Source: an uncultured Gammaproteobacteria bacterium (GTDB lineage Bacteria; Patescibacteriota; Patescibacteriia; Magasanikbacterales; UBA922). From it: 64,000 nt of DNA. Of the stretch, positions 8,515 through 32,735 are shown one piece after another. The stretch covers positions 140,330 to 204,329 of the forward strand of contig CAYFPM010000002.1 of assembly GCA_964345045.1 (NCBI GenBank), in the 5' to 3' direction. The position numbers and the translations under genes were made by a program. Positions within the stretch are counted from its first letter, which is position 1. The number at the start of each line of letters is the position of its first letter. The notes below the pieces were generated by a model. That model had not been told where the DNA came from, made no database searches, and saw only the letters and a list, made by a program, of their open reading frames with translations.

Positions 8515-8516
8515 AG

Positions 8517-9011
8517 TTACCGATTACACACGGCAGGATCACTAAAGTTACCATTGGCACAAGGGTTGTATTCTTCTGTGTCGGAGTAATGGAAAAAACC
8601 TTCTTCCGGCTCTCCTACAGATCTTCTAACCGTTCTATCTACAAATATCAATATAGAATAGGCACTAGCAGCTACCAAAACTCCAATCACAGCCGTACGC
8701 AAAGTCTTTTTGCCTTTTTCTACTTTTTGTTCGTCTCCACCAGAAGTTAAGATAAGATAACCGGCATACACAGTATAACCAATAAATAGAATTCCAATAA
8801 AACCAAGTAAGCGACGAATAATCTGGGCAGCAACCAATCTAGGATCTTCTGCTATGCCAAAATCGGCTCCTCTATTTCCAGCAAAGGCTCCGGTTTGTTG
8901 ATTCAAATCTTCGGCAAAGCTGGCCGCATTTACAAAATCCGAAGTTGCTAAAAAAAACAAACCAGCCAAAGCAAAGCTAAACAATAATATTTTTTTCTTT
9001 TTGCTAAACAT
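8517..9011 (-). CDS. pilin-like secreted protein, TrbC/VirB2-like two-helix core (paralog 1) with a short Cys-containing C-terminal tail
   Basis: Signal peptide. Core LLGFIGILFIGYTVYAGYLILTSGGDEQKVEKGKKTLRTAVIGVLVAASAYSI. Tail ends ...NPCANGNFSDPAVCNR. Confidence 0.6.
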   Translation of the reverse strand: MFSKKKKILLFSFALAGLFFLATSDFVNAASFAEDLNQQTGAFAGNRGADFGIAEDPRLVAAQIIRRLLGFIGILFIGYTVYAGYLILTSGGDEQKVEKGKKTLRTAVIGVLVAASAYSILIFVDRTVRRSVGEPEEGFFHYSDTEEYNPCANGNFSDPAVCNR

Positions 9012-9016
9012 AGTTA

Positions 9017-9460
9017 TTAGGGATTCGATCTATTTTGTTCCAAAGCTTCTCTCACGGCTTCTCTAGGATTTTGCTTTTGCAAAGAACCTTGCACCGCGCT
9101 ACTTATAAACCTAGTAATAGAGTAAGCCAAAAGAACTATAATAAGACCAATTATGGCTCCGCGTACAGTTTTGGTGGCTTTTTCTACCTTACTTTCGTCT
9201 CCACGAGAGGTAATATACCAATAGCCGGCCATAAGTACCAAAACTATAAAAAAAGTTCCTACAAAGCCAAGTAAGACTTGTACAATCTCGGCAATGATTA
9301 TCCTAGGGTCAGCCGCACCTCCAAAACCGGCTCTATTGGCTCCGGCTGTAATCTGACTACCGACTTGGCTACCCAAATCTCCTGCCATAGCTGGAGAAAA
9401 GAAAAACAAAGAAAGTGATAAAGAAAAAAACAAAACCAAAATCACTAATTTATTACGCAT
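9017..9460 (-). CDS. pilin-like secreted protein, TrbC/VirB2-like core (paralog 2)
   Basis: Signal peptide. Core LLGFVGTFFIVLVLMAGYWYITSRGDESKVEKATKTVRGAIIGLIIVLLAYSI. Confidence 0.6.
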   Translation of the reverse strand: MRNKLVILVLFFSLSLSLFFFSPAMAGDLGSQVGSQITAGANRAGFGGAADPRIIIAEIVQVLLGFVGTFFIVLVLMAGYWYITSRGDESKVEKATKTVRGAIIGLIIVLLAYSITRFISSAVQGSLQKQNPREAVREALEQNRSNP

Positions 9461-9462
9461 AC

Positions 9463-10188
9463 TTATAATCTAATCAAAGCTTGGTTATTGAAATTACAGG
9501 TCCAACCAACCCCTGGAGAATTACTCTGGCACCAAGTTCTACAACCAGAAGCGTCTTGAATATTGGTATTTGGTCTTTGGGTTCCTCCCCCAGTATTTCT
9601 CACCCATTCACAAACACCCGAAGTACTTTGCAAGATTTGACCATTAAACTCACAGTTCCAACCGGCTGCACTAACAGGATTCCCTACACACCAAGCCTGA
9701 CACTCGGCAGAGTTGGCAATTGGAGTGCTTGGGGTTTGGCTACCACTGCCTTGGGTGTTTACCCAACGACAACTACCACTACCACCAGCCGGAGAGCTAC
9801 TCCCCGTAGAACCACCACTAGCTCTATCTATTAGTCTAGGAACTACAAAAGAAGTAATGCTATAGGCTCCTACAGTAATTATAAGTCCAATTATCGCTGC
9901 TCTTATAATATTTTGAGCTTTGCTTATTTTGTCTTCTTCGCCTCTCGCAGTCATCCACATAAAACCAGCATATACCATAAGGATCATAAAGATTACCCCC
10001 ACAAAAGACAAGGCCGCTCGAACTATGTCTCCCAAAGTTTCGGCAAAACTAGTTTCTGTGGTGTTGGGGTCAAAACCAGCTTCTTTGGCTGCTTCTCTAG
10101 CCAGTCCAGTGCCCAAATCAATAGCCAAAGTGCTTTGTGGCAAAAATAATACCAAACCAAGCAAAACAAAAAGTAAAAACTTTTTCAT
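9463..10188 (-). CDS. pilin-like protein with a C-terminal tandem Cys-rich module (paralog 3)
   Basis: Core ALSFVGVIFMILMVYAGFMWMTARGEEDKISKAQNIIRAAIIGLIITVGAYSI. A C-terminal module of about 45 aa is repeated twice (CxWVxNTxG...CxxWCxxN...GWxCxFNxQ). Confidence 0.6.
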   Translation of the reverse strand: MKKFLLFVLLGLVLFLPQSTLAIDLGTGLAREAAKEAGFDPNTTETSFAETLGDIVRAALSFVGVIFMILMVYAGFMWMTARGEEDKISKAQNIIRAAIIGLIITVGAYSITSFVVPRLIDRASGGSTGSSSPAGGSGSCRWVNTQGSGSQTPSTPIANSAECQAWCVGNPVSAAGWNCEFNGQILQSTSGVCEWVRNTGGGTQRPNTNIQDASGCRTWCQSNSPGVGWTCNFNNQALIRL

Positions 10189-10321
10189 ACAAATAAATCA
10201 ATTCCCTTGCCCTGTTATTAATATTAAGGGCAAAGTATAAAATAAATATTTTTTAAACACTCATTAAATCTAATTCAATCCCTTTTCTGCGGAATCTTTA
10301 TAAATCAATGAAATCAGTGTT

Positions 10322-10360
10322 TAAAAAACCAAACCTGATTACAAGCATACACCAGGTTTA
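10322..10360 (-). terminator. intrinsic terminator after pilin paralog 4
   Basis: Minus-strand hairpin aaacctg...caggttt followed by a U-run (an A-run on the plus strand at 10323-10328). Confidence 0.55.
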
Positions 10361-10372
10361 GCCTGCCTATTA

Positions 10373-10744
10373 TTACGAACCACCTAATCTTCCAGTAACA
10401 AACACAGTGATTGCATAAGCTGATACTACTATAACCAGACCAATAATAGTACTGACTATAACTTTTTGCGCTTTTTGAACTTGTTCTTCGTTGCCACGAG
10501 CTGTCATCCAAAGATAACCTCCATAAACCATTAAGAGCAAAAATATAATACCCACCAGTGTAAGCGCTGCGTTTATAATTCTACCAGTAGCAGTTTCCAG
10601 ATCCCGAACATCGTCTACCCCGGCTCTACTACCAACATTTTCTAGTGGACTACCACCACCAAAAGCATCTTGTAGACCACCAGCCAAAGTCACACTAGGA
10701 AAAAGTAATAACGCAGTTAAAATTATTATTGAAAATTTTTTCAT
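10373..10744 (-). CDS. pilin-like secreted protein, TrbC/VirB2-like core (paralog 4)
   Basis: Start at MKKFSII. Core LTLVGIIFLLLMVYGGYLWMTARGNEEQVQKAQKVIVSTIIGLVIVVSAYAI. Confidence 0.6.
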   Translation of the reverse strand: MKKFSIIILTALLLFPSVTLAGGLQDAFGGGSPLENVGSRAGVDDVRDLETATGRIINAALTLVGIIFLLLMVYGGYLWMTARGNEEQVQKAQKVIVSTIIGLVIVVSAYAITVFVTGRLGGS

Positions 10745-10758
10745 ATAGCTTAATAATA

Positions 10759-11127
10759 TCAATTTGTAAGTCTACCGACAAATAGTGTAATAGCATAAGC
10801 CATTACTACCACAGCTGCCCCAATTATAGCAGCTATTACAGTTTTTTTACCCTTTTCTATTCTTTCTTCGCTACCTCTAGCTGTCATCCATATAAAACCA
10901 CCATAAATAGTAAGAATAAAGAAAAATAATCCTACAAGCGAAATCCCCGCACGTAGTCCATCGGCGACAATGTTTGTGACACTAGATCTTTCTACTCCAG
11001 CTCTCCCAGCTACGTTTTCGGTAAAACCAGTGGCATTATTTATTTTATAACCAGCCAAAACAATATTTGGCAGAAGCCAAAAAGCCAAGACTAAAGTATA
11101 AAACAAATGATTAACAATCTTGGGCAT
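10759..11127 (-). CDS. pilin-like secreted protein (paralog 5)
   Basis: Core ISLVGLFFFILTIYGGFIWMTARGSEERIEKGKKTVIAAIIGAAVVVMAYAI. Confidence 0.6.
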   Translation of the reverse strand: MPKIVNHLFYTLVLAFWLLPNIVLAGYKINNATGFTENVAGRAGVERSSVTNIVADGLRAGISLVGLFFFILTIYGGFIWMTARGSEERIEKGKKTVIAAIIGAAVVVMAYAITLFVGRLTN

Positions 11128-11129
11128 AA

Positions 11130-11693
11130 TTAATTACAATTGGAAGCCGATATATTTGGGTTCACAGTAGCTGTTAAGCCAGGACCTCCCTGACACAAAC
11201 TGCTAGCATTACTTGGAAAATAAGGACCTCTTACACATTGAACTGCTCCACCTGTAGCTCCAGTGGTACAAACCACACAACAACCAGCGTCTACCGCCGT
11301 AGTCCCAGCTCCAGGTGCTGGGGTTGTTGGTTGCGTAGCTGTACCTACACTTTGGAATACAAATCTGGTAATAGCATAAGAAGCAATCACCAAAATAAGA
11401 CCAATAATGGCAGCTGTCACCGTACTAAGTGCTTTTTTACTTATTTCTTCATTGCCTCTGGCTAGCATCCAACTAATACCCGCGTAGATCATAAGTATAA
11501 AAAACAGAACCCCGATTAGAGTAAGGCCAGCGCCAATTACATTTCCTACAATATCGGCTAGACTCCCCCTAGCTGTGGTATCTAGCCCAGATTCCTCTGC
11601 AGTTTGTTCCAATCCATAACCAGCCAAGGCCAAAGACGGAAAAGCTACAGCCAAACCAGCCAAGAAACCAAACAAATAATTTTTCTTTTTCAT
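11130..11693 (-). CDS. pilin-like protein with a Cys-rich C-terminal domain (paralog 6)
   Basis: Core LTLIGVLFFILMIYAGISWMLARGNEEISKKALSTVTAAIIGLILVIASYAI. Tail ...GCCVVCTTGATGGAVQCVRGPYFPSNASSLCQGG...SNCN. Confidence 0.6.
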   Translation of the reverse strand: MKKKNYLFGFLAGLAVAFPSLALAGYGLEQTAEESGLDTTARGSLADIVGNVIGAGLTLIGVLFFILMIYAGISWMLARGNEEISKKALSTVTAAIIGLILVIASYAITRFVFQSVGTATQPTTPAPGAGTTAVDAGCCVVCTTGATGGAVQCVRGPYFPSNASSLCQGGPGLTATVNPNISASNCN

Positions 11694-11704
11694 ATAATTA
11701 AAAA

Positions 11705-12319
11705 TTAAGAACCAGCGGCAATACAACAAACATTATTACGTCCTCCGGGACAAACACCTGTTTCTATAGTGGCCGGGTCACACGAATTTCTTTCCTGACA
11801 TCTATAATTAGGGTTAGTGTCACCAAAGGTAATTGTACAAAATGTTTGACATCTACCAGCAACACAAGCAGTCTGTGGACCACAGTCCGTATCGGCTGTA
11901 CAACTAGCCCCAGGAGCTCCAGCAGTAGCACCAGGTGCCCCACCAGAAGTAGTCCCTCCCTCGACTGTACCAAATACAAACCGAGTAATAGCATAAGCAG
12001 ACAATACTATAATAAGACCAACAATCGCAGAAACAATAATTTTTAGCCCTTTCATAGCTTGTTCATTGTTGCCATGAGAAGTCATCCAAGTAACTCCACC
12101 GTATATAGTAAGAATAAAAAATAGTACTCCTACAAAAGACAATGCTCCACCCAAAAATCTACCGGTAGCCGTAGGGATATCCCCAAATTTTTGCAAACCA
12201 GATCTACTAGAAACTAGTTCTAATCCATACTCATCGGCAGCCATAGTTGGAGGCAAAAACAAAAACATCCCTAGAAAAAAAGCCGACAAAAATGAAACTA
12301 TAAATATTTTTTTAGGCAT
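11705..12319 (-). CDS. pilin-like protein with a Cys-rich C-terminal domain (paralog 7)
   Basis: Core LSFVGVLFFILTIYGGVTWMTSHGNNEQAMKGLKIIVSAIVGLIIVLSAYAI. Tail has 10 or more Cys (CTADTDCGPQTACVAGRCQTFC...). Confidence 0.6.
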   Translation of the reverse strand: MPKKIFIVSFLSAFFLGMFLFLPPTMAADEYGLELVSSRSGLQKFGDIPTATGRFLGGALSFVGVLFFILTIYGGVTWMTSHGNNEQAMKGLKIIVSAIVGLIIVLSAYAITRFVFGTVEGGTTSGGAPGATAGAPGASCTADTDCGPQTACVAGRCQTFCTITFGDTNPNYRCQERNSCDPATIETGVCPGGRNNVCCIAAGS

Positions 12320-12329
12320 GGATCAAAAA

Positions 12330-12716
12330 TTATAGGGTATAACCAGTAGTTGCTCTATAAATATTGCTAAGAACAAAACTGGTTACTGCATAAGCGCTTA
12401 AAATTATAATAAGACCAATTACTGCTGCCCACAAAGTTTTTTTAGCTTTGGTGATACTTTCTTCGTTTCCTCCAGCAGTCATCCACATAAAACCGGCATA
12501 CAATATAACCCCCAAAGAGATGACTCCCAACAAACTAAGAAAAACTTGAATTATTGTGCCAACCGAATTTCTCAAATCACGATCTCCCAAACCACTAAAT
12601 TTGCCATATTCTGTGCCTAGCAAATCTGCTCCGGCCAAAACGGGATTTATTTGTAAAATAAAAAAACCGAAAGCTACAAAAGTTAAAAAAACTATGATTT
12701 GCTTGGTATTTTTCAT
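12330..12716 (-). CDS. pilin-like secreted protein (paralog 8)
   Basis: Start at MKNTKQIIVFL. Core FLSLLGVISLGVILYAGFMWMTAGGNEESITKAKKTLWAAVIGLIIILSAYAV. Confidence 0.55.
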   Translation of the reverse strand: MKNTKQIIVFLTFVAFGFFILQINPVLAGADLLGTEYGKFSGLGDRDLRNSVGTIIQVFLSLLGVISLGVILYAGFMWMTAGGNEESITKAKKTLWAAVIGLIIILSAYAVTSFVLSNIYRATTGYTL

Positions 12717-12824
12717 AAAGATTGATTTTGGTGCAAAAGAAACAAAAATTATCTCTTTAGCACCACCATCAAAATACAAAGGGCAGAGATCTCCACGTGG
12801 GGTTAGACCCCTGCCCAATGTAAG

Positions 12825-13244
12825 TTAGAATGTTACGGATTGTCCGGCACCTGCTGTAGTACCAGTGGCAATAGCCAACTGATTTAGCACGAAACGTGCA
12901 ATAGCAAAGGCACTCAAGATAATAGCCAAACCAATGATTCCAGCAAAGATTCTCTTGCGAGCTTCGGCAACTTTTTCTTCGTTACCACCAGCTGTCATCC
13001 ATTGAAAACCACCAGCCAAGATAATTACCAATGCAACGATACCCAAAAGGCTAAGTGCTACACGGATAATTTGACCGATAGTGTCACGGATATCTTGGTT
13101 TCCAAGTCCACTAGTTGTACCGTATTCTAGACCGAATACAGTAGCACCAGCGTGAGCAGAAGGAACTAGAAATACACCCATAAGAAGCACGGCAACAGCA
13201 ACCCAAGCGAGACGGTATTTGGCGACTGTGTTTATCCAATACAT
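12825..13244 (-). CDS. short pilin-like protein with a strong Shine-Dalgarno site, candidate major subunit (paralog 9)
   Basis: 139 aa. Core ALSLLGIVALVIILAGGFQWMTAGGNEEKVAEARKRIFAGIIGLAIILSAFAI. Upstream GGAGGTGAGACT-ATG is the strongest RBS in the cluster. Confidence 0.6.
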   Translation of the reverse strand: MYWINTVAKYRLAWVAVAVLLMGVFLVPSAHAGATVFGLEYGTTSGLGNQDIRDTIGQIIRVALSLLGIVALVIILAGGFQWMTAGGNEEKVAEARKRIFAGIIGLAIILSAFAIARFVLNQLAIATGTTAGAGQSVTF

Positions 13245-13345
13245 AGTCTCACCTCCCTTCCGTTATAAATGTTTTTATTCATATAGCAATAGTATACGTG
13301 AATAAGCCTAGTTTTACAAAATAGATGTGGACAGTGATATAGGGT

Positions 13346-13416
13346 TTAGGCAACAGGCATTAGTAACTAGAAAAACACTATTGCCTATTCCCTATTCCCT
13401 ATTGCCTGTTGCCTAA
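13346..13416. repeat. intergenic palindromic element ttaggcaacaggcat ... attgcctgttgcctaa (family member b)
   Basis: 15-nt inverted repeat. The centre contains tactattgcc and three cctattcc direct repeats. Confidence 0.55.
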
Positions 13417-14210
13417 CTACCAGTAAGCCCACGGATAACTGTATTCAAAATAGCATAGGCCGAAAATATAACAGCCAACCCGATTACCGCATAAAGCATG
13501 GTATTGGTTCCTTTTTTTACTCTTTCTGGATTTCCTGCCGAAGTAAGCCACATTACTCCCCCAGCAAAAAAGACTAACAAAGTAATAGATCCAATCACAG
13601 CCATAGCATTTCTAATCACATCGGCTACAATTACTCGCAAATCTGTTTTTTCTGGATCACTCCCCAAAGGATTTTTTAAACAAAAAACTCCCGGATCATC
13701 ACATCTGTCTTTGGTTGTCCCAGCTCCACCGGCACTCTCGGTTCCTTCTGCCAGAGTACAACCTAGTGAAAAATTAACAGATTGCCCGGCAGAACCAACG
13801 GAAACAGTCTGCGATATGCTAGATGTTTCACAGGTGTTAGCATCGAGACTTACAGAAGCAGCTACATTTGGGTTAGCCATAATAGCAGCCGGAGCGCCGG
13901 CTTGTTGGACTTGGCTACACCCAGCATCCTTGGCAGCAGCAAACGCCGAGGCAATAGTCTGATTTAGATCCAAACTAGATCCCAAAGCAGTGTTGTTGGT
14001 AAAGGCAGCATCATTACAAGCTGGAGTAGTGCTTTTTATACTAGTAACACAACGACAGACCTCGGCTGCCTGGGCTGGGTTTGGTGACAGAAGACTGGAA
14101 AAAAATATAGCCCCCAAAACAAATACAAATAAATTTATCTGTTTTATTGCCACCCTTTGGGTGATCAGCCGAAGGCTGGCTTTATTACTTTTTTGCTTTT
14201 TTGTTTTCAT
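13413..14210 (-). CDS. secreted Cys-containing protein with a C-terminal TrbC/VirB2-like pilin core (paralog 10, permuted domain order)
   Basis: Signal peptide, variable ectodomain, then VIRNAMAVIGSITLLVFFAGGVMWLTSAGNPERVKKGTNTMLYAVIGLAVIFSAYAI at the C-terminus. Confidence 0.55.
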   Translation of the reverse strand: MKTKKQKSNKASLRLITQRVAIKQINLFVFVLGAIFFSSLLSPNPAQAAEVCRCVTSIKSTTPACNDAAFTNNTALGSSLDLNQTIASAFAAAKDAGCSQVQQAGAPAAIMANPNVAASVSLDANTCETSSISQTVSVGSAGQSVNFSLGCTLAEGTESAGGAGTTKDRCDDPGVFCLKNPLGSDPEKTDLRVIVADVIRNAMAVIGSITLLVFFAGGVMWLTSAGNPERVKKGTNTMLYAVIGLAVIFSAYAILNTVIRGLTGS

Positions 14211-14219
14211 ACAATTAAC

Positions 14220-15071
14220 CTAAAATCTAAAGACTTCCTCTACACCCAAACTGTCTAATAAGAAATTAACTAATAGATAGGCACTTAGCGAAATCGTTAC
14301 CCCTATTATAGCAGCCACTAGAATTTGTTGCCCTTGTTTAAATTTTTCTGGGTTGCCAAAAGCAGTTACCATTGTAACACCACCATAAACAAACATAACA
14401 AAAGCCACCACTCCAAGTAAACTAAACACTCTGGCTGAATAATTTAAAACCAAAATAAGCAAATCATCTACATCACGACAAGTTCCACTAATAGCACAAG
14501 CCGGCAAAAGACTTCCATCTTCGGCTGTATAACCAGCACTAAGACTTGATTCCAATATGGTTATACAAACATTATCACTCCAACCACAAGCCGAGGATCT
14601 TTCACAAGTAGTAGAATCTCTAATATCTCTACAAATATTGCCATCTGCCAAAGAATAACAAGCATTGTTTACCCAAAAACAACTGCCTTGGTTGCCCCCA
14701 CTCTCACACTGTGATCTGTCTAGCTCCGGGCACTTTACAATAGTTTCTACAAATTTGTCTCTACATCTAATATGCCCTAGACAATCTATTTCTCTTTCTC
14801 TTATCAAATCACAAGTTTCAAAACCTTCTCTTCTGGATCTTATACAATTCTTTTTTACTTCTGTAGTTTTGCAAGGACTGGTTTGCTTTATACTACAACT
14901 GTTAACTCTAAATTCTGTATCATGTCCTCTTTTTATCTCTTCTATACAACACTGTGCCGCACTAGCACTATCTACCTGCAAAAAATAAGAAAAAAATAAA
15001 ACAAAAACAAATATGCCAAATCTGTTAAAACGTTTTAATGATTTCATGCTTTCATGATTTAATGATTTCAT
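14220..15071 (-). CDS. secreted Cys-rich protein with a C-terminal pilin core (paralog 11)
   Basis: About 20 Cys in the ectodomain. C-terminus VFSLLGVVAFVMFVYGGVTMVTAFGNPEKFKQGQQILVAAIIGVTISLSAYLLVNFLLD. Confidence 0.55.
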   Translation of the reverse strand: MKSLNHESMKSLKRFNRFGIFVFVLFFSYFLQVDSASAAQCCIEEIKRGHDTEFRVNSCSIKQTSPCKTTEVKKNCIRSRREGFETCDLIREREIDCLGHIRCRDKFVETIVKCPELDRSQCESGGNQGSCFWVNNACYSLADGNICRDIRDSTTCERSSACGWSDNVCITILESSLSAGYTAEDGSLLPACAISGTCRDVDDLLILVLNYSARVFSLLGVVAFVMFVYGGVTMVTAFGNPEKFKQGQQILVAAIIGVTISLSAYLLVNFLLDSLGVEEVFRF

Positions 15072-15083
15072 GTTTTAATATTT

Positions 15084-16196
15084 TTAAAATGGTCTAAAAA
15101 AATCTATTACACCAAAAGCGTCTAACAAGAAATTGACCAACAAGTAAGCGCTAAAAACTATTACCAAACCAACTACCGAAGCAACCAAGACATTAACCCC
15201 TTTTTTAAATTTTTCTGGATTACCAAAAGATGTAATCATAGTGATACCGCCTACCAAAAAACTAATAAAGGCAAGTAAACCAGCAAAACCAAACGCCCAA
15301 GTAGCATAACCAAGTTGCTGCTGCAAAATATCGTTCAAACTATCGCAAGTACCATCGTGACCACAAGGAGGAAAAGCTCCTGGTCTACTAAAATCTATAT
15401 TGCCCGACAAACCAGATTGGAGCAAGGTGTTGCATTTGCCAGTATCTTCATTCCACTTGCAAACTTTACTGCCAGCTCCACCATCACAAAGATCTTTGCT
15501 TCTCAATTTGAAACAGAGATCATTATTTTGTCTAGATTCACACTTGTTTTCAAAAACAAAACAAGAAGCCAAAGGACAGCTAGCAGCACTATGATCTAGG
15601 CAATTGATGGTTCCGCTTATCAAAACTTCATCTGAAAAACCTATAAAATATAGATATCTACCTCCATTTACCGCCGGGGTAGTGTATCTCACCCTAGAAT
15701 TACAACTTTGATTTGGAACTGAAACTGTTTTTTGTAATTTGTAAGAAACATTATCCAAAGTTTGTTTGTAAGCAAATCCAGCCACGTTATTTCGCCACCA
15801 GCCGGCAGTTTGAAAAACACCAGCCGAGCAGTAAGTAATTTCTTCGTTTACTAACCATTTCCCAGCACTATTAAATTCTATCCCCGTAGCCGTATTTAAT
15901 TCTTGCAATGCTCCAATAGTTTTTAGTTGATCATAACTAACGGTTTGGTCGTTTTGATCTACCAAAACACAAAAACTAAAATTAGGAATTGGTTCAAAAT
16001 TTGGATTACCGTTGTCATTGTTAGCTGCTACAAATACTGCATATCTTTTGCCACTGGGAGGAGTTGGGCAGTTAACATTGTAATCCGATTGAGCCAAGCT
16101 AGGAGAAGGAAATAAAAAGAAAATAAAAATCAAAAAAACCAGCTTGCTAAAATATTTTCTTATTTTTTGTTTTTTTAAATTTTTTGTTTTTAGCAT
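15084..16196 (-). CDS. secreted Cys-rich protein with a C-terminal pilin core (paralog 12)
   Basis: C-terminus FGFAGLLAFISFLVGGITMITSFGNPEKFKKGVNVLVASVVGLVIVFSAYLLVNFLLDAFG closely resembles paralog 11. Confidence 0.55.
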   Translation of the reverse strand: MLKTKNLKKQKIRKYFSKLVFLIFIFFLFPSPSLAQSDYNVNCPTPPSGKRYAVFVAANNDNGNPNFEPIPNFSFCVLVDQNDQTVSYDQLKTIGALQELNTATGIEFNSAGKWLVNEEITYCSAGVFQTAGWWRNNVAGFAYKQTLDNVSYKLQKTVSVPNQSCNSRVRYTTPAVNGGRYLYFIGFSDEVLISGTINCLDHSAASCPLASCFVFENKCESRQNNDLCFKLRSKDLCDGGAGSKVCKWNEDTGKCNTLLQSGLSGNIDFSRPGAFPPCGHDGTCDSLNDILQQQLGYATWAFGFAGLLAFISFLVGGITMITSFGNPEKFKKGVNVLVASVVGLVIVFSAYLLVNFLLDAFGVIDFFRPF

Positions 16197-16246
16197 CTAA
16201 ACTAATAAAAATTTTAAACCAAATTTTACCAAACTGACTTTTTGAA

Positions 16247-16310
16247 ATGACACTTTACTCTTGAAACACGACCCAAAACAAAAAGCGTCAAGTTATAAGC
16301 GTCATGTGTC
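16247..16310. repeat. 64-nt intergenic repeat, copy 1 (atgacact..cttgaaacacgacccaa..cgtcaagttataagcgtcatg)
   Basis: Near-identical second copy at 19232-19290. Both lie upstream of minus-strand gene starts. Confidence 0.5.
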
Positions 16311-16355
16311 ATATTTTTCTAGTTGCTACAGCATATTGTCTATCCTCTTCCTAAT

Positions 16356-17732
16356 CTAATATGTTTGTTGTACTTTTTGTTGCGTTTGGATTAGCAATCT
16401 ACTGTCTCTTTCAAAAGGTCTTTCCCCTTCACCATACGGTTGCAAATAATCACCCAACAAATCTACAAAAGCTTGTTTGGCAGCTTCGTAGTCACGCCCT
16501 TTGTACCAATTTTTGGCAGTCAAAACTTGAGAAGCAAATGGCTCGAGTAACGGGTCTCCCTGCTGTTCGGCAACTTGCGCCCGTAGTGGGCTAGGCTGCA
16601 AGGTAGCATCCAAATATCTTTTTACATTTTCCGGACTAGAGATATAACGTACAAAATCCCAGGCTTCATTTGGATTTTTGGTTCTTTTTACAACAGACTC
16701 TACCCAATAATTGGCTACATTCCCAGAGAACTGAGGATTTAATTGTGGGATTGAAACTACTGAAAAATCTAGCTGTGGAGCTTGGGCTTGTATCCTAGCT
16801 CTGTCGTGAGCAAAACCTACATAAAATACTGCTTTACCTCTGGCAAATTCTTCTAGGGCATTACCAAAATTTTCGTTCCAAGCATATACATCTTTGTTTG
16901 GTTTGGCAAAATCACTATAAAATTGTAATGATTGCAAAGCTGGATGATTTTCATTGGCTCTATTTAAACCTAGAGCAAAAGTTACAAAATTTTCATCGGT
17001 AACTTCTACTCCATTTTGCAGCATTAGCATCATTAGAATATCGGCAGCGTTGTCTATGTTGTTTCCAGTACCAAAGCTAATACCAGACTGCAAGATATTG
17101 CCAGAGTTATCATATCTGGTAGCTTTTTTTACAGCTTCGCTTAATTCTGTCCAACTCTCTGGAGGTAGAGCAATACCAGCTTTGTCGAGGAGTTCTGTAT
17201 TGTAATAGAGTGCCAAAGTATCCATGGCCAGTGGCAAACCATATATTTCATTCTCCAAAATCACATCTTCGGCTACAGTGCTCACATAATTTCTACGAAC
17301 AGTACTTTGGGTTGGTAGCAAATTTTGTTCTGTTTCTACAATTATCTCTGGTTGATACTTGCCTTTTACAAAAACTCTCGAAACAGTTACTCCCCTTGGC
17401 ATAGGCATTAATCTGTTTTGATATTTTTTTAACCAACGAGAATGCATCGATACCAAATCCGGAGCCACATCATCGGCCAAAGCGTTCACAAAAAGATTAT
17501 CAAATTCTTCGTAACGAACCTGACGAATATTTATGTTTACATAAGATCTTATTTCTTTGTATTCTTTGGCAAATGTACGAAGCGTTTCTACATCATCAAA
17601 AACTGTCCAATAGTTGATAGTTACCGGCTGTATAGCAGCTCTTTCTTCTTGGGTCAATCCCTTGCAACCAAAACCAATCAACAAAAAAATCAAGAAAAAA
17701 ACACTTAGTTTCCCAAAAATTTTAAAATTCAT
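16356..17732 (-). CDS. extracellular solute-binding lipoprotein (ABC transporter SBP family 1-like)
   Basis: Lipobox LLIGFGC after the MNFKIFGKL signal. About 450-aa periplasmic-binding-fold-like sequence. No permease gene is adjacent. Confidence 0.55.
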   Translation of the reverse strand: MNFKIFGKLSVFFLIFLLIGFGCKGLTQEERAAIQPVTINYWTVFDDVETLRTFAKEYKEIRSYVNINIRQVRYEEFDNLFVNALADDVAPDLVSMHSRWLKKYQNRLMPMPRGVTVSRVFVKGKYQPEIIVETEQNLLPTQSTVRRNYVSTVAEDVILENEIYGLPLAMDTLALYYNTELLDKAGIALPPESWTELSEAVKKATRYDNSGNILQSGISFGTGNNIDNAADILMMLMLQNGVEVTDENFVTFALGLNRANENHPALQSLQFYSDFAKPNKDVYAWNENFGNALEEFARGKAVFYVGFAHDRARIQAQAPQLDFSVVSIPQLNPQFSGNVANYWVESVVKRTKNPNEAWDFVRYISSPENVKRYLDATLQPSPLRAQVAEQQGDPLLEPFASQVLTAKNWYKGRDYEAAKQAFVDLLGDYLQPYGEGERPFERDSRLLIQTQQKVQQTY

Positions 17733-17740
17733 AGCAAGGT

Positions 17741-17800
17741 ATTTAGAAAATAGGCAACAGGCAGGAGGCAATAGTATTTTTTTCAGTTTTACTATTGCCT
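17741..17800. repeat. intergenic palindromic element ggcaggaggcaatagta ... tactattgcctcctgcc (family member c)
   Basis: 17-nt perfect inverted repeat around a T-run. Bidirectional terminator-like. Confidence 0.6.
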
Positions 17801-17822
17801 CCTGCCTAACCCCTACATCCTA

Positions 17823-18272
17823 TTATCCCACCGCCTGAAATAAGAAAGAAACTATGGCGTAACTAGCCAAAATTACAACCAAACCAAGACTAGACCAGAC
17901 TAGCGTTTTGGTAGCCAGAGCTGTTCGCTCGCTATTGCCCCGAGAAGTCATCCACATTATGCCGCCGGCTACAAACATTACCAGAGATACAGAACCTATA
18001 ATCCCCATGGCAATTCTAATAAGTCTACCAATCAACACTTGTGGAGAAGTCGTGCCAAGCCTATTTAAATCTTTTACAAGATCTTTTGTACTAGTACTTA
18101 ACAATTCGGATCCGGTTTGATCTGGAGGCACAACCGGTTCTACTTCTCCTGGAACTCCGGCATTTGTTACACTAGGCAAACCAAAGAAAACAAAAAAAGA
18201 CAAAAAAATTGCCAATAGGATTACAAAAGCTTTGTTTATTTTTTTGTGTGGCGAGTGACAAGCTACCGCCAT
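17823..18272 (-). CDS. pilin-like secreted protein, TrbC/VirB2-like core (paralog 13)
   Basis: Core IRIAMGIIGSVSLVMFVAGGIMWMTSRGNSERTALATKTLVWSSLGLVVILASYAI. Confidence 0.55.
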   Translation of the reverse strand: MAVACHSPHKKINKAFVILLAIFLSFFVFFGLPSVTNAGVPGEVEPVVPPDQTGSELLSTSTKDLVKDLNRLGTTSPQVLIGRLIRIAMGIIGSVSLVMFVAGGIMWMTSRGNSERTALATKTLVWSSLGLVVILASYAIVSFLFQAVG

Positions 18273-18287
18273 AAAATTTAGTTAAAA

Positions 18288-19139
18288 CTAAAGAAGATTT
18301 TCTTTTTCGGCAAAATGAATAGCTGTTTTTAACAAAGCTATTTTGTTGCCAGTATCAAAATATTCTCCATCGTATTCATAAGCAAGAAAAGGTTTTTTCT
18401 TGGCCAAATCATTGGCAGCGTCGGCTACCCAGATTTCTCCATCTCTTCCTTTACCTTGTTTTTCCAGGCTCTTCCAAATATCTTTGGTAAACACATAACG
18501 CATGCCCCCAACAATAAGTCCATGAGGAGAAACTTTTTTTAGACTTGGCTTTTCTATAAATTTATCAACCTTAAAAACTCTTTTTTCTTTGGTCTCGCTT
18601 GCATAAACATTACCATATTTGGTCATGGCTTGTCGATCGGAAATTCTTTGTACTCCAATTATAGAAGCTTGTTTTTTGTTGAATATTTTTAAAAGTTGTT
18701 TTATTGCCGGAACCTTGGCATCGATTATGCTGTCTCCATCGGAAAAAGCAAATGGTTCATCTCCTACAAATTCTTTGGCACAGAGCAAAGCATGACCATT
18801 GCCTTTTGGAGCTGGTTGTCTGGTATAAAAAAATCTTACTTTTTTACGCAAGTCTATAAGAGGTTGAATTCTATCTAGTTTGCCTTTTTTTTCCAGCATG
18901 TGCTCCAAGGCATTGTCACGATCAAAGTGATCTTCGATTGCTCTTTTGTTGGCACTGGTTACAAACATAATATCTGTAATACCACTTTCGGCCATTTCTT
19001 CTACTATGTACTGTACTACTGGTTTGTCTAGTACTGGTAACATTTCTTTGGGCATGGCTTTGGTAGCTGGCAAAAATCTAGTACCCAATCCTCCCACGGT
19101 AATTACACCTTTTGTCACTTTTTGATTTTTTTGTGGCAT
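18288..19139 (-). CDS. galU: UTP--glucose-1-phosphate uridylyltransferase
   Basis: N-terminus KGVITVGGLGTRFLPATKAMPKEMLPVLDKPVVQYIVEE matches the GalU nucleotidyltransferase signature. Confidence 0.8.
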   Translation of the reverse strand: MPQKNQKVTKGVITVGGLGTRFLPATKAMPKEMLPVLDKPVVQYIVEEMAESGITDIMFVTSANKRAIEDHFDRDNALEHMLEKKGKLDRIQPLIDLRKKVRFFYTRQPAPKGNGHALLCAKEFVGDEPFAFSDGDSIIDAKVPAIKQLLKIFNKKQASIIGVQRISDRQAMTKYGNVYASETKEKRVFKVDKFIEKPSLKKVSPHGLIVGGMRYVFTKDIWKSLEKQGKGRDGEIWVADAANDLAKKKPFLAYEYDGEYFDTGNKIALLKTAIHFAEKENLL

Positions 19140-19294: not shown

Positions 19295-20707
19295 CTATTC
19301 AAGCTCTTCCCAACTAATTAGTTCATAAGTATTGCCAACCGGGAAACCTGGTGGTGGCAAATAACGCAAATTACCATCGTAAATATACAAAGTATCTATA
19401 AAACCAGAGATAACATGCCCCCAACCATTTACCCATTTCATACCACCGGGCAAATAATCTATTTGTGAGCCATAAACAGTTAGGCTGGTTCGGGTTTGAC
19501 CACTATAAAAAGGTCGATGAATGGCTCCAAACTGAGAAAGCATGGCCGCTTCAATAGTCATTTGATCTGGAACTTCGTAAGGAATAATAATATCTCCCTG
19601 GGTAAAAAGCCCGGTCACATCGTCGTCGTTCCTTTGTGCGTAGGTTAGATTACCGGTTACAAAAATATTTTTATAAGGTTGTTGTACTGGAATTTCTCCA
19701 GCAGCCAGACTCAATCGTCCATCTACATTTCCTTCTACCCAGACATCATCTTCTACAAAAATAGCTCCATTGGCTGGTATAGGGTTGCCACTACTTACCA
19801 GCGTTTCATTGCCAATGTCATAACAATAGATATCACCATCCCAATACCAACCTACCCAAAATCTATACCTCCATCTACCACTACCATAATAACAATCTCT
19901 ACTGGTAACTCTGTATAAATCATAGGTACTACCATTGAATACAAAATGCCAACCTTCTTGACCAGAAGAAGTAAGCAAAACACCGGCATCAACCGCCATG
20001 GTACGCAGAGCCGATAGATCTGCTGTTACCCCAAAAAAATCTACACTTGGTACTGGAAATTCCCAAAAGGCTCGGGTCTCGGCATTGGCTCCTCCCCAAA
20101 CACCGTTCCTCCATTGACCAGGTTGGTACTCATAACTATCTTTGGCGCTTCTTACCCAAGAAGTAGCCGTACCATCGAACTTAATTCCTCCGTTGGAATG
20201 GGTTTGTCCGTTTACAGTAGAGGTAAAACTAAAAGACATATTGGAATTGGATACAAAAGCATAATCAGTCAGAGCCGGGAATCCCATCCTAACTTGAATG
20301 GTACGCTTCTCGTCTGGTTTGCCCACTGTCCAACCGGTAGAGCTAACCATTACCACGGTAGTGCCGGACAAAGGTGGTTGAATTTGCAAAGAAAAATAAC
20401 CAACCGTATCACCATCTTTGTCTAGATATGGGTGAACGTATGGCCCAGGTTGGCCAGTACCGTCCTGGTAATCTGTAGGGGCATGAGCTAGATGCCAACG
20501 ATAATAATTTATACCAGACTCAGCAATATGAAAGGCTTGGTCTCTTTTGTAAATTCTGTTGGAAGCTCTGTTTTCTAATATGGCATAAGAAGCCAAACCA
20601 GCCACAATCATAGTAAAAGCAGCCGATCCAAAAATAAGCACAAATATCATTACAGAACCTTTTTTATCATTTTTTAACTTTGTGAATTGTTTAAAAAAAT
20701 TTTTCAT
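19295..20707 (-). CDS. type IV pilus minor-pilin/PilX-like protein
   Basis: N-terminal hydrophobic segment after the basic stretch KKGSVMIFVLIFGSAAFTMIVAGLASYAILENR, followed by a large periplasmic domain. First gene downstream of two prepilin-type genes. Confidence 0.45.
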   Translation of the reverse strand: MKNFFKQFTKLKNDKKGSVMIFVLIFGSAAFTMIVAGLASYAILENRASNRIYKRDQAFHIAESGINYYRWHLAHAPTDYQDGTGQPGPYVHPYLDKDGDTVGYFSLQIQPPLSGTTVVMVSSTGWTVGKPDEKRTIQVRMGFPALTDYAFVSNSNMSFSFTSTVNGQTHSNGGIKFDGTATSWVRSAKDSYEYQPGQWRNGVWGGANAETRAFWEFPVPSVDFFGVTADLSALRTMAVDAGVLLTSSGQEGWHFVFNGSTYDLYRVTSRDCYYGSGRWRYRFWVGWYWDGDIYCYDIGNETLVSSGNPIPANGAIFVEDDVWVEGNVDGRLSLAAGEIPVQQPYKNIFVTGNLTYAQRNDDDVTGLFTQGDIIIPYEVPDQMTIEAAMLSQFGAIHRPFYSGQTRTSLTVYGSQIDYLPGGMKWVNGWGHVISGFIDTLYIYDGNLRYLPPPGFPVGNTYELISWEELE

Positions 20708-20743
20708 ACAATAAATTAATAAACCGTGAACAACCCCAAACAC

Positions 20744-20775
20744 TACTCCCTGTTGCCTCCTGCCTACCCCCTCCC
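20744..20775. repeat. half-copy of the ggcaggaggca palindromic element (family member d)
   Basis: Contains tgttgcctcctgcctaccccctcc. The tgcctaccccct tail also occurs at 36487. Confidence 0.4.
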
Positions 20776-20781
20776 AACTAT

Positions 20782-21405
20782 CTAATTCGTTTTTAAATTT
20801 CTAATATGAGCCACAGACTCCAAAGAAAGAGTTGTGGAATTACTAGCTGTGACTTTTTCAAAATCCAAATTAACTCTAACTACATGCACCATAGTGCTAG
20901 AAGCTGTGTCGGCTACAAAAGGTAGTGGCGTCCCGACTCCATTGTAACTTTCGTCATAATAAGTAAAAACATCGGTTCCATTATCATCGTTAATTACATT
21001 TGTAGCTAGTAGTCTACTGGTTTCGTTTCCCAAATCATAGGTCAAGGGATCTCCACTTGGCTTTACCACTCCTTTGTAAAAAATATTGTTGTTTTGATCC
21101 AAATAAAATCTGATTCTTTCTCTTAGAGAATCTTGATCATCGTTGGCATAAAAAATAAACTCGTATCTTTTGGCAGAAAAAACAGGGTAAGCCCCAGTGC
21201 TGGACTCTTCGGCACGACGAGCTACGTTTACAAATTCACTTAGAGCTCTTCGGCCATCACTTTGCAAACTTAGTTTGTCCCATAGCCTAGCATTATTTCT
21301 TTGACCATAAATAATAAGAGAAGCTGCTCCAATTGTAATTACCATAATGATAGCCATAGCCACCATTATCTCTAGCAAAGAAAATCCTTTGTTATCTTTG
21401 AACAT
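20782..21405 (-). CDS. type IV pilin/pseudopilin (prepilin-type N-terminus)
   Basis: N-terminus MFKDNKGFSLLEIMVAMAIIMVI has the class III signal (G|FSLLE with E at +5). Confidence 0.65.
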   Translation of the reverse strand: MFKDNKGFSLLEIMVAMAIIMVITIGAASLIIYGQRNNARLWDKLSLQSDGRRALSEFVNVARRAEESSTGAYPVFSAKRYEFIFYANDDQDSLRERIRFYLDQNNNIFYKGVVKPSGDPLTYDLGNETSRLLATNVINDDNGTDVFTYYDESYNGVGTPLPFVADTASSTMVHVVRVNLDFEKVTASNSTTLSLESVAHIRNLKTN

Positions 21406-21409
21406 AAAA

Positions 21410-30270: not shown

Positions 30271-30336
30271 TTCATAGCCAATAGTGCATGGCCAATCGTC
30301 AGTAATACCGATTGGCTATGAACCATGAACTAAAAA
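30270..30336. repeat. intergenic repeat (copy 2) with perfect inverted repeat gttcatagccaat/attggctatgaac
   Basis: Shares catggccaatcg and ggctatgaac..gaactaaaa with the copy at 27161. Confidence 0.45.
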
Positions 30337-30434
30337 CTAGCTAAAAGTCCTGTCATTATGAATCAGTTCGAGAAAAAACAAACTGTCAATCAAAAAATTA
30401 TAAATAATTTCAGATTATACCTGTTTATTTTTTA

Positions 30435-30512
30435 ATTTTCGTAAATTCGTAAATTTATCCGATGCCTTGATCGGAGTCCGTATCGCTTGCGCATCGGACG
30501 TATTTCGTACAT
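30435..30512. repeat. array of TTCGTAAA/TTCGTACA octamers plus a ccgatgc/gcatcgg hairpin upstream of pilC
   Basis: ttttcgtaaattcgtaaattt and gtatttcgtacata. The same octamer array occurs at 51225-51305. Confidence 0.4.
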
Positions 30513-30521
30513 AATTTCATT

Positions 30522-31631: not shown

Positions 31632-31632
31632 C

Positions 31633-32733: not shown

Positions 32734-32735
32734 GT

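What the first reader, a model, noticed from the sequence alone, without database searches (positions are those of the whole stretch)
13413..16196. Domain-order permutation: pilin core placed at the C-terminus behind large Cys-rich ectodomains
In paralogs 10-12 the conserved two-helix pilin core forms the last 70 or so residues. About 200-300 aa of Cys-rich ectodomain (about 20 Cys each in 14220-15071 and 15084-16196) sits N-terminal to it. In the other paralogs the core follows the signal peptide directly. This suggests modular shuffling of adhesin heads onto a common polymerising or anchoring unit.
Basis: seen in the sequence. Interest (0 to 1): 0.55.

Follow-up and report, generated by a model that had tools for sequence, protein, structure and literature searches.

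The report
VirB2-like pilins carrying cysteine-rich N-terminal heads
Three neighbouring genes in an uncultured ultra-small (CPR/Patescibacteria) bacterium encode conjugation-type pilin proteins with a large, probably disulfide-bonded surface domain fused in front of the pilin core, a common but seemingly undescribed variant that may act in attachment to host cells.

Summary
ORFs 13413-14210 (p10), 14220-15071 (p11) and 15084-16196 (p12), all on the minus strand, each end in a two-helix core. That core passes the Pfam PF18895 T4SS_pilin cut-off. An HMM built only from the other ten paralogs also finds it (E 1e-15 to 1e-22). Between the signal peptide and the core lie about 140, 165 and 250 residues with 8, 18 and 14 Cys, not about 20 each.

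"Permutation" is only partly right. Three other paralogs (p3, p6, p7) carry Cys-rich tails C-terminal to the core, but those tails show no detectable similarity to the N-terminal modules. Both ends of the hairpin should face outward, so ectodomains can attach at either end.

The form is widespread. An exhaustive profile search found 325 clusters (50% identity) at E<=1e-30, and the best 150 all have a C-terminal core. p11 and p12 share a conserved Cys "stalk" and core under unrelated distal heads. In related arrays, mostly Ca. Magasanikbacteria, the N-extended genes sit at the 5' end behind a solute-binding lipoprotein gene.

The function is inferred: surface display of binding heads, anchored or polymerised through the pilin hairpin. 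No VirB4 lies in the window. I rate it a new variant of a known kind.

The parts
15084..16196 (-). p12, 370 aa, an N-extended VirB2-like (T4SS_pilin) protein. Layout: signal peptide aa 1-35 (nt 16092-16196); beta-rich head aa 36-198 (nt 15603-16091); Cys-rich stalk aa 199-286 (nt 15339-15602); two-helix core aa 287-361 (nt 15114-15338); short 'FRPF' tail.
   Evidence: PF18895 at 36.7 bits, aa 297-357. 14 Cys. AF2 model pLDDT 81 with helices 287-321 and 327-361. Cys 43, 76, 199, 207, 237, 246, 278 and 284 are invariant or nearly so across 52 homologs.
14220..15071 (-). p11, 283 aa, an N-extended VirB2-like protein. Layout: signal peptide aa 1-38 (nt 14958-15071); small beta-sheet head plus helices aa 39-113 (nt 14733-14957); Cys-rich stalk aa 114-200 (nt 14472-14732); core aa 201-275 (nt 14247-14471); 'FRF' tail.
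   Evidence: PF18895 at 33.1 bits, aa 215-271. 18 Cys. Ten Cys are invariant across 28 homologs. AF2 pLDDT 76.8. 42% identical to p12 over p12 aa 211-368 only.
13413..14210 (-). p10, 265 aa, an N-extended VirB2-like protein of a different sublineage. Layout: signal peptide aa 1-48 (nt 14067-14210); Ala/Ser/Thr-rich ectodomain with 8 Cys aa 49-188 (nt 13647-14066), ending in the 'LKNPLG' juxta-core motif; core aa 189-262 (nt 13425-13646).
   Evidence: PF18895 at 34.9 bits, aa 199-257. Leave-out HMM E 1.6e-22. Its ectodomain is unrelated to those of p11 and p12. Proteins with the closest cores share the L.NPLG motif but have inserts of very different length.
16356..17771 (-). Family-1 solute-binding protein with a lipobox-like N-terminus (LIGFGC). 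It lies between p13 and p12 and is a conserved member of this array type.
   Evidence: SBP_bac_1 and SBP_bac_8. A homolog is present in 20 of 21 related array loci that have N-extended genes, against 3 of 8 without. In most loci its stop codon lies a few nt before the first N-extended gene.
17823..18272 (-). p13, 149 aa, a T4SS_pilin paralog and the first gene of the array. Its positional counterparts in other genomes are often N-extended.
   Evidence: PF18895 at 40.9 bits. Array patterns 'N|N...'.
12825..13244 (-). p9, a minimal T4SS_pilin paralog of 139 aa.
   Evidence: PF18895 at 40.2 bits.
12330..12716 (-). p8, a minimal T4SS_pilin paralog. The likely start is the ATG at 12716, not the TTG at 12818.
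11705..12319 (-). p7, a C-extended paralog: core followed by an 85-aa tail with 10 Cys that ends in 'CPGGRNNVCC'.
   Evidence: PF18895. Cys positions. The tail belongs to a 9-member tail cluster.
11130..11693 (-). p6, a C-extended paralog with a tail of about 70 aa and 6 Cys. The likely start is the ATG at 11693.
10759..11127 (-). p5, a minimal paralog of 122 aa.
   Evidence: PF18895 at 32 bits.
10373..10744 (-). p4, a minimal paralog of 123 aa counted from the ATG.
9463..10188 (-). p3, a C-extended paralog: core followed by a 120-aa tail with 8 Cys, made of two repeats of about 50 aa (C.W...C..WC...W.C).
   Evidence: PF18895..
9017..9460 (-). p2, a minimal paralog of 147 aa.
8517..9011 (-). 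p1, the last gene of the array, 164 aa, with a short tail holding 2 Cys.
   Evidence: PF18895 at 31.5 bits..

Best explanation
p10, p11 and p12 are secreted, membrane-inserted members of the Patescibacteria VirB2-like pilin family (Pfam T4SS_pilin).

Shown:
- Each has a Sec-type signal peptide, then a Cys-rich ectodomain, then the family's two hydrophobic helices joined by a short basic loop (GNPE[KR].KKG).
- The architecture is conserved in hundreds of sequence clusters.
- Each ectodomain holds an even number of Cys. In p11 and p12 most of these positions are invariant or nearly invariant across homologs.
- In p11 and p12 the ectodomain splits into a conserved membrane-proximal stalk and a variable distal head.
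- The genes occupy a fixed place at the 5' end of a conserved array, just after a solute-binding lipoprotein gene.

Inferred:
- After signal-peptide cleavage the loop stays on the cytoplasmic side (positive-inside rule) and both ends of the hairpin face outward. A domain fused to either end is then displayed on the cell surface. This would explain why sister paralogs carry Cys-rich tails at the C-terminus instead.
- The Cys form disulfides that stabilise the ectodomain outside the cell.
- The hairpin either co-assembles with the seven minimal paralogs into a VirB2-type filament, with the head-bearing subunits as sparse or tip subunits, or it simply anchors the head in the membrane.
- The heads bind ligands on a host or partner cell or its wall. 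Head diversity would track partner specificity.
For: Family membership and core position:
- Pfam hits for all 13 paralogs.
- Leave-out HMM.
- Alignment.

Topology:
- Hydropathy.
- AF2 helices 287-321/327-361 in p12 and 201-236/241-275 in p11.

Conserved Cys framework:
-.
- Cys enrichment 7- to 14-fold over background.

Size of the subfamily:
- 325 clusters at E<=1e-30 and 3,922 at E<=1e-10. All of the best 150 have a C-terminal core.
- Across those proteins a median of 264 aa (signal peptide included) and 15 Cys lie N-terminal to the core, and 91% have the C...G.C juxta-core motif.

Modularity:
-.

Array-wide survey (441 core-bearing ORFs in 81 loci):
- 58 are N-extended, 53 of them with at least 6 Cys.
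- 66 are C-extended, 57 of them with at least 6 Cys.
- 5 are extended at both ends.

Fixed 5' position in arrays:
- Mean relative rank 0.12 for N-extended genes against 0.56 for minimal ones, p about 2e-17.

Known binding modules:
- Some extended relatives carry wall-binding domains: SH3_3 in 4 and PG_binding_1 in 2.

Literature:
- VirB2-like arrays are widespread in Patescibacteria and are essential for epibiotic growth in Southlakia epibionticum (PMC12102498, PMC10633639, PMC12857230).
Against: - No filament of these proteins has ever been observed, in this lineage or any other Patescibacteria. The 2025 review speaks only of a 'potential' to make pili.
- No VirB4, VirB6 or other T4SS gene lies in the 64-kb window. 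Only 1 of 50 long ORFs from 33 related array loci is VirB4-like.
- A head of 14-27 kDa on every subunit would crowd a VirB2-type helical filament. This is my own geometric estimate, not a computation.
- The ectodomains match no Pfam family and no solved structure, so 'binding head' rests on analogy and on a handful of SH3/PG-binding relatives.
- Signal-peptide cleavage and disulfide formation are inferred.
- The related loci were retrieved with an N-extended query and share ancestry. The array statistics therefore describe one clade, not independent events.
Confidence: 0.6

Rival explanations
1. These are plain membrane-anchored surface proteins. The VirB2-like hairpin serves only as a two-pass anchor. 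The proteins never polymerise and work independently of any T4SS, for example as receptors or wall-contact proteins together with the adjacent solute-binding lipoprotein.
For: No VirB4 or other T4SS gene in the window or near 32 of 33 related arrays. Conserved linkage to an SBP lipoprotein in 20 of 21 loci. A large head looks sterically awkward for a homopolymer (inference).
Against: The loop and helix motifs of the core are as conserved in p10-p12 as in the minimal paralogs, which suggests a shared constraint beyond anchoring. The genes are embedded in an array with seven minimal pilin-like genes. In other Patescibacteria such arrays lie beside virB4 (PMC12102498).
Confidence: 0.28
2. The N-terminal region is a pro-domain or cargo. 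By analogy with the long leaders of TraA, VirB2 and TrbC, the ectodomain would be cleaved off near the conserved juxta-core motif (P.C...G.C or L.NPLG). This would release a soluble Cys-rich protein and leave a minimal pilin.
For: Canonical VirB2-family pilins have unusually long cleaved leaders (my own knowledge). Conserved short motifs sit exactly at the ectodomain-core boundary.
Against: Two of the invariant Cys (C278 and C284 in p12) lie inside the boundary motif and look like part of the disulfide framework. AF2 predicts a continuous folded stalk running into helix 1. No protease gene is linked.
Confidence: 0.07
3. This is a literal domain-order permutation: the same Cys-rich module has been moved by recombination from the C-terminal side of the core (as in p3, p6, p7) to the N-terminal side (p10-p12) within this array.
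For: Both classes are Cys-rich and occur in one array. There is a weak 'C.W' motif resemblance between the p11 stalk and the p3 tail (E 0.011 in a seven-sequence database).
Against: No significant similarity between any N-module and any C-tail. The cores of the two classes are never nearest neighbours. Each paralog has a closer ortholog in another genome than any paralog in the window, so the arrangement is ancient.
Confidence: 0.04
4. It is an artefact: mis-called starts, or fusions of an upstream ORF with a short pilin gene.
For: Two other paralogs in the list do have over-long TTG starts (11130-11729 and 12330-12818).
Against: The frames of p10-p12 are continuous, begin with ATG and are followed by a signal peptide. 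The same genes occur on independent contigs. Full-length homologs with conserved Cys columns run from the signal peptide onward. 146 of the 153 proteins tabulated (the best 150 hits plus a few related sequences) start with Met and show the same layout.
Confidence: 0.01

Closest known systems
Patescibacteria VirB2-like pilin arrays (Pfam PF18895 T4SS_pilin; Quinonero-Coronel et al. 2025, PMC12102498; Wang et al. 2023, PMC10633639)
   Same: Same Pfam family. Same layout of signal peptide plus two-helix hairpin. Same tandem array of highly divergent paralogs in a CPR genome.
   Different: The described members are treated as small pilins, and I found no mention of ectodomain-bearing forms in the papers I could search. 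Here 3 of 13 paralogs carry N-terminal ectodomains of 140-250 aa and 3 carry C-terminal tails. The array has 13 genes, where 2-11 were reported. It lies beside type IV pilus minor-pilin genes and an SBP gene, not beside virB4.
Canonical conjugative pilins VirB2, TrbC and TraA (Pfam PF04956)
   Same: A hydrophobic helical hairpin with a basic connecting loop, and export by a cleavable leader. There is weak sequence similarity (p12 E 4e-4) and weak structural similarity (Aeropyrum pernix conjugation pilus 8dfu, probability 0.66, E 2.7).
   Different: The match is below the Pfam cut-off. The mature proteins are 3-5 times larger. They are Cys-rich. The host is a monoderm. No linked VirB4, VirB6 or VirB5.
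Mycoplasma ICE 'Mbov_0395 family pilin-like conjugal transfer protein' (NCBIfam NF045849)
   Same: A pilin-like two-helix protein from a monoderm T4SS. It is the best NCBIfam match for the cores (E 2e-9 to 4.5e-4).
   Different: All scores are below the family cut-off of 40 bits. The NF045849 profile is only 80 positions long and matches just the two-helix core.
Pilus tip or minor-subunit adhesins (VirB5 on T-pili; minor pilins with extra domains on type IV pili)
   Same: A functional analogy only: a binding module presented by a subunit that joins a filament through a pilin-like element.
   Different: No sequence or fold relationship was tested or found. VirB5 is not a VirB2 fusion. Type IV pilins use a class III signal (N_methyl), which p10-p12 lack.

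Membership tests
Pfam PF18895 T4SS_pilin (Patescibacteria VirB2-like pilins) | Profile match above the curated gathering score (26.6 bits) | tested here: met
   p10 scores 34.9 bits, p11 33.1 and p12 36.7. 120 of 126 extended relatives also match.
Pfam PF18895 T4SS_pilin (Patescibacteria VirB2-like pilins) | Signal peptide followed by two hydrophobic helices joined by a short charged loop | tested here: met
   Hydropathy segments. AF2 helices. Loop motif GNPE[KR].KKG. The signal peptides were judged by eye and hydropathy, not with a dedicated predictor.
Pfam PF18895 T4SS_pilin (Patescibacteria VirB2-like pilins) | Occurrence in tandem arrays of divergent paralogs (2-11 genes, about 25% identity; PMC12102498) | tested here: met
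   12 contiguous genes plus 1 on the minus strand. Whole-protein identity is 22-36%.
Pfam PF18895 T4SS_pilin (Patescibacteria VirB2-like pilins) | Assembly into a pilus by a T4SS | not testable with these tools
   No experimental data exist for any member. The review PMC12857230 calls it a possibility.
Canonical VirB2/TrbC pilin (Pfam PF04956) | Profile match above the gathering score (27.9 bits) | tested here: not met
   p12 scores 20.9 bits (E 4.3e-4). p10 and p11 have no hit.
Canonical VirB2/TrbC pilin (Pfam PF04956) | Genetic linkage to VirB4 and other T4SS channel genes | tested here: not met
   No such domain in any window ORF of at least 450 aa. Only 1 of 50 long ORFs in 33 related array loci is VirB4-like. 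The rest of the genome could not be examined.
Canonical VirB2/TrbC pilin (Pfam PF04956) | Small mature subunit of about 7-10 kDa | tested here: not met
   The mature chains are about 217, 245 and 335 aa.
Type IV pilins (class III signal, N_methyl PF07963) | N-terminal G|F..E prepilin motif processed by PilD | tested here: not met
   No N_methyl hit in p10-p12. True N_methyl proteins lie nearby at 20782-21405 and 21410-23197.
Diversity-generating retroelement target proteins | A template/variable repeat pair and a reverse transcriptase nearby | tested here: not met
   No TR/VR-like repeat in 8000-18500; the only repeats are the conserved cores. bAvd-like genes occur only in the related loci L003 and L004.
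NCBIfam NF045849 Mbov_0395 pilin-like conjugal transfer protein | Score at or above the 40-bit cut-off | tested here: not met
   The best scores are 37.0 bits (p9), 22.6 (p10) and 19.8 (p12).

The most novel reading that the evidence does not exclude
Magasanikbacteria-type CPR bacteria build a mixed VirB2-type filament, or a membrane platform, from an ordered 13-gene array. The minimal paralogs would form the shaft. The N-extended subunits (p12, p11, p10) would form an exchangeable, disulfide-stabilised adhesive tip that determines which host cell is engaged, possibly together with the co-transcribed solute-binding lipoprotein. This would be the first case of conjugative-type pilins that carry their own adhesin domains, and it would occur in a monoderm.
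Probability: 0.25. Interest if true: 0.75.

Novelty: new variant of a known kind. Interest (0 to 1): 0.5.

Why it matters
How CPR/Patescibacteria recognise and hold on to their hosts is an open question. The VirB2-like pilin arrays are among the few gene sets shown to be essential for the epibiotic lifestyle, in Southlakia epibionticum.

A large, conserved subfamily of these pilin-like proteins carries variable Cys-rich heads on a conserved stalk. These are concrete candidates for the host-binding determinants. The ectodomains could be expressed and tested for binding. Head diversity could be compared with host range.

The finding also bears on how far a VirB2-type subunit can be decorated and still assemble. 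All characterised conjugative pilins are small, bare hairpins.

Tried and rejected
- **Word-indexed protein search.** With p12 it found only 6 proteins, and with the A2 profile only 5. This was a tool limitation. The exhaustive profile search found hundreds.
- **PDB sequence search** with the subfamily profile returned nothing.
- **DGR idea.** It was prompted by bAvd-like genes in the syntenic array L003/L004. No TR/VR repeats occur in the window array or in L003, so I rejected it for this window.
- **Stalk versus C-tail homology.** I tested whether the N-terminal stalk and the C-terminal tails are the same module and found no significant similarity. A profile-profile test was not possible because p3's tail is a singleton.
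- **Conserved upstream operator.** A CATGAC-rich motif is present in the window and in L003 but is not conserved in the other loci, where the SBP gene abuts the first N-extended gene.
- **VirB4 near related arrays.** One Pfam scan of 50 long ORFs gave a single VirB4-like protein. A follow-up on nine of the ten longest did not identify which locus carries it.
Full report
**1. What is there**

The minus strand between 8517 and 18272 carries 13 ORFs that all match Pfam PF18895 (T4SS_pilin, the Patescibacteria VirB2-like pilin family). Twelve are contiguous (8517-16196). The thirteenth (17823-18272) is separated from them by a solute-binding-protein gene.

In the three ORFs of the finding, the Pfam match lies at the extreme C-terminus:

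| ORF | Coordinates | Pfam match | Score |
|---|---|---|---|
| p10 | 13413-14210 | aa 199-257 of 265 | 34.9 bits |
| p11 | 14220-15071 | aa 215-271 of 283 | 33.1 bits |
| p12 | 15084-16196 | aa 297-357 of 370 | 36.7 bits |

All three scores exceed the 26.6-bit cut-off.

I also built an HMM from the cores of the other ten paralogs only. It finds the same C-terminal segments at E 1.6e-22, 1.3e-17 and 6.4e-15.

The 13-way alignment places the additional sequence between the signal peptide and the first core helix.

**2. Corrections to the observation**

- Cys counts are 8, 18 and 14, not about 20 each.
- After removing the probable signal peptides, the ectodomains are about 140, 165 and 250 aa. 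The cleavage sites AQA|A, ASA|A and SLA|Q were read from the sequence, not from a predictor.
- Cys makes up 5-10% of these ectodomains and about 12% of the p12 stalk. The figure for the other long ORFs of the window is 0.73%.
- All three ectodomains have an even number of Cys.
- Three "ordinary" paralogs are not ordinary. p3 (9463-10188), p6 (11130-11729) and p7 (11705-12319) carry Cys-rich tails of 8, 6 and 10 Cys on the C-terminal side of the core.

**3. Is it a permutation?**

The N-terminal modules and the C-terminal tails show no detectable similarity. The only significant relationship among all the extra modules is between p11 and p12.

On core sequences from 441 family members, N-extended proteins have an N-extended nearest neighbour in 50 of 58 cases. 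They never have a C-extended one.

Each window paralog is closer to a positional ortholog in another genome (L003/L004, core identity 0.59-0.89) than to any paralog in the window (0.42-0.56). The array is therefore old. The two architectures are separate lineages, not one module moved around.

Topology offers a simpler account. This part is inferred. The short loop between the helices is basic (for example EKFKKG) and the flanks are acidic. By the positive-inside rule the loop faces the cytoplasm and both ends of the hairpin face out. This is also the topology known for F-pilin (my own knowledge). Either end can then carry an extracellular domain.

**4. Modularity is real at another level**

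- p12 and p11 are 42% identical over p12 aa 211-368 and unrelated before that point.
- p12 and P0003 are 59% identical over aa 216-368, again with unrelated heads.
- Alignments of 52 and 28 homologs show an invariant or near-invariant Cys framework in the membrane-proximal "stalk". They also show a P.C...G.C motif just before helix 1, a core with FGN[PA]E[KR].KKG, and a DALGV...FR tail.
- Of 121 stalk-bearing proteins, the distal heads fall into 63 BLAST clusters. The largest, p12-like, has 49 members.
- p10 belongs to a different sublineage. It is marked by an L.NPLG motif before the core, and the insert between the signal peptide and that motif ranges from almost nothing to about 200 aa among the proteins with the closest cores.

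**5. How common is it?**

An exhaustive profile search of 1.84 billion representative proteins gave 325 hits at E<=1e-30, 3,922 at E<=1e-10 and 30,779 at E<=1e-3. All of the best 150 have the core at the C-terminus, at lengths of mostly 200-570 aa. In these, a median of 264 aa (signal peptide included) and 15 Cys lie N-terminal to the core.

A scan of one genome per species returned 79 loci. Nearly all come from Patescibacteria, and the best ones from Ca. Magasanikbacteria. The window's YchF is 69-74% identical to Magasanikbacteria proteins.

My own ORF and HMM survey of these loci covered 441 core-bearing ORFs:

| Class | Count | With at least 6 Cys in the extension |
|---|---|---|
| Minimal | 312 | n/a |
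| N-extended | 58 | 53 |
| C-extended | 66 | 57 |
| Extended at both ends | 5 | not counted |

**6. Array grammar**

In the array loci with N-extended genes, the N-extended genes lie at the promoter-proximal end. Their mean relative rank is 0.12, against 0.56 for minimal genes (Mann-Whitney p about 2e-17). C-extended genes lie mid-array. Saccharibacteria-type arrays contain only minimal genes.

A homolog of the window's solute-binding lipoprotein is present in 20 of 21 arrays with N-extended genes, and in 3 of 8 without. It usually ends a few nucleotides before the first N-extended gene.

These loci share ancestry and were retrieved with an N-extended query. The statistics describe a conserved clade-level arrangement, not independent events.

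**7. Structure**

The AF2 model of p12 (52-sequence alignment) has mean pLDDT 81. It shows:
- a signal helix;
- a beta-rich head, with a low-confidence stretch at aa 101-150;
- a compact stalk of two beta-hairpins with short helices;
- two long helices, 287-321 and 327-361.

The AF2 model of p11 has pLDDT 76.8 and the same stalk and hairpin under a small four-stranded sheet.

The ectodomains match no Pfam or NCBIfam family and no PDB sequence.

Among 126 extended relatives, four carry SH3_3, two carry PG_binding_1 and one carries DUF4215. The rest have nothing recognisable.

**8. Context**

The window is ordinary CPR chromosome. It encodes MutS, RecQ, trigger factor, YchF, tRNAs and two DUF5667 proteins.

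Next to the array lie type IV pilus genes: N_methyl minor pilins at 20782-23197 and PilB/PilC/PilM/PilN at 28543-33269.

No VirB4-like ATPase lies in the 64 kb. Only 1 of 50 long ORFs from 33 related array loci is VirB4-like.

**9. What is known**

VirB2-like pilin arrays of 2-11 genes at about 25% identity were catalogued in 383 Patescibacteria assemblies (PMC12102498). A six-gene array is essential in Southlakia epibionticum (PMC10633639). A 2025 review treats a pilus in these monoderms as a possibility (PMC12857230).

I found no description of ectodomain-bearing members in the searchable literature. That search does not cover subscription journals.

**10. Verdict**

- The "permutation" reading is replaced by [quoted passage not shown].
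- The "modular heads on a common unit" reading is supported for the p11/p12 subfamily and the p10 lineage.
- The function remains inferred: surface display of binding heads, in a filament or as anchored proteins.
- This is a new variant of a known kind, of moderate interest.

Noticed in passing
window 16356-17771 (-): A family-1 solute-binding protein with a lipobox-like N-terminus sits inside the pilin array. No ABC permease or ATPase gene was seen next to it. Homologs occupy the same slot in 20 of 21 related arrays that have N-extended genes, often ending only a few nt before the next gene. Its role in the array is unexplained.
   Followed up: partly
window 19295-23197 (-) and 28543-33269 (+): Type IV pilus genes flank the VirB2-like array. 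They include a 595-aa minor pilin with CarboxypepD_reg domains, a 207-aa N_methyl pilin, a 482-aa ORF with no Pfam hit, and PilB, PilC, PilM and PilN. The minor-pilin trio is syntenic with the array in 8-9 of 21 related loci. No VirB4 is nearby.
   Followed up: partly
L003 4195-4542 and 6272-6598; L004 11159-11506: Genes of the bAvd / 23S_rRNA_IVP family (four-helix bundle, the DGR accessory type) are interleaved between the orthologs of p12, p11 and later pilins in a related genome. No TR/VR-like repeats were found there, and no such genes occur in the window array.
   Followed up: partly
L003 2945-3006, 6579-6640, 7767-7828; window about 16270-16330: A 62-nt intergenic repeat rich in CATGAC/GTCATG half-sites precedes three pilin genes in L003. 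A similar GACACATGAC...GTGTCAT motif lies upstream of p12 in the window. It is not conserved in the other loci. It may be a lineage-specific operator or promoter element.
   Followed up: partly
window 9463-10188 (-), aa 121-241: The C-terminal tail of p3 is an internal duplication of a unit of about 50 aa with four Cys (C.W...C..WC...W.C.FN.Q). No similar tail was found in the 71 tails surveyed.
   Followed up: partly
window 11705-12319 (-), aa 120-204: The tail of p7 belongs to a nine-member tail family that ends in a conserved C(P/S)GG.(N/D).(V/I)CC motif. It occurs in Magasanikbacteria and Kerfeldbacteria loci.
   Followed up: partly
L011 1292-2251 (+) and other loci in alignment A6: Some N-extended VirB2-like proteins carry recognisable wall-binding modules. 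L011 has two SH3-like repeats before the L.NPLG motif. SH3_3 occurs in 4 proteins and PG_binding_1 in 2.
   Followed up: partly
window 11130-11729 and 12330-12818 (-): The mechanical ORF starts (TTG) are probably too far upstream. With ATG starts at 11693 and 12716 the proteins begin with normal signal peptides, and the 25-nt overlap with the upstream gene disappears.
   Followed up: yes
window 8517-18272; L019, L010, L026: The array sizes exceed the published range of 2-11 pilin genes (PMC12102498). The window has 13. By my count L019 has 16, and L010 and L026 have 15 each.
   Followed up: partly
window 13345-13412 (-): Just after the stop codon of p10 there is an 11-bp perfect inverted repeat (GGCAACAGGCA ... 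TGCCTGTTGCC) around a loop of about 44 nt that holds GGGAATA repeats. The gaps p12-p11 and p11-p10 are 12 and 9 nt, so p12-p11-p10 may form their own transcription unit. The terminator scan did not list this repeat.
   Followed up: no
window 2149-3531 (-) and 37348-40659 (-): Two large proteins (460 and 1103 aa) carry DUF5667, a domain that recurs in the related Patescibacteria loci. Their function is unknown.
   Followed up: no
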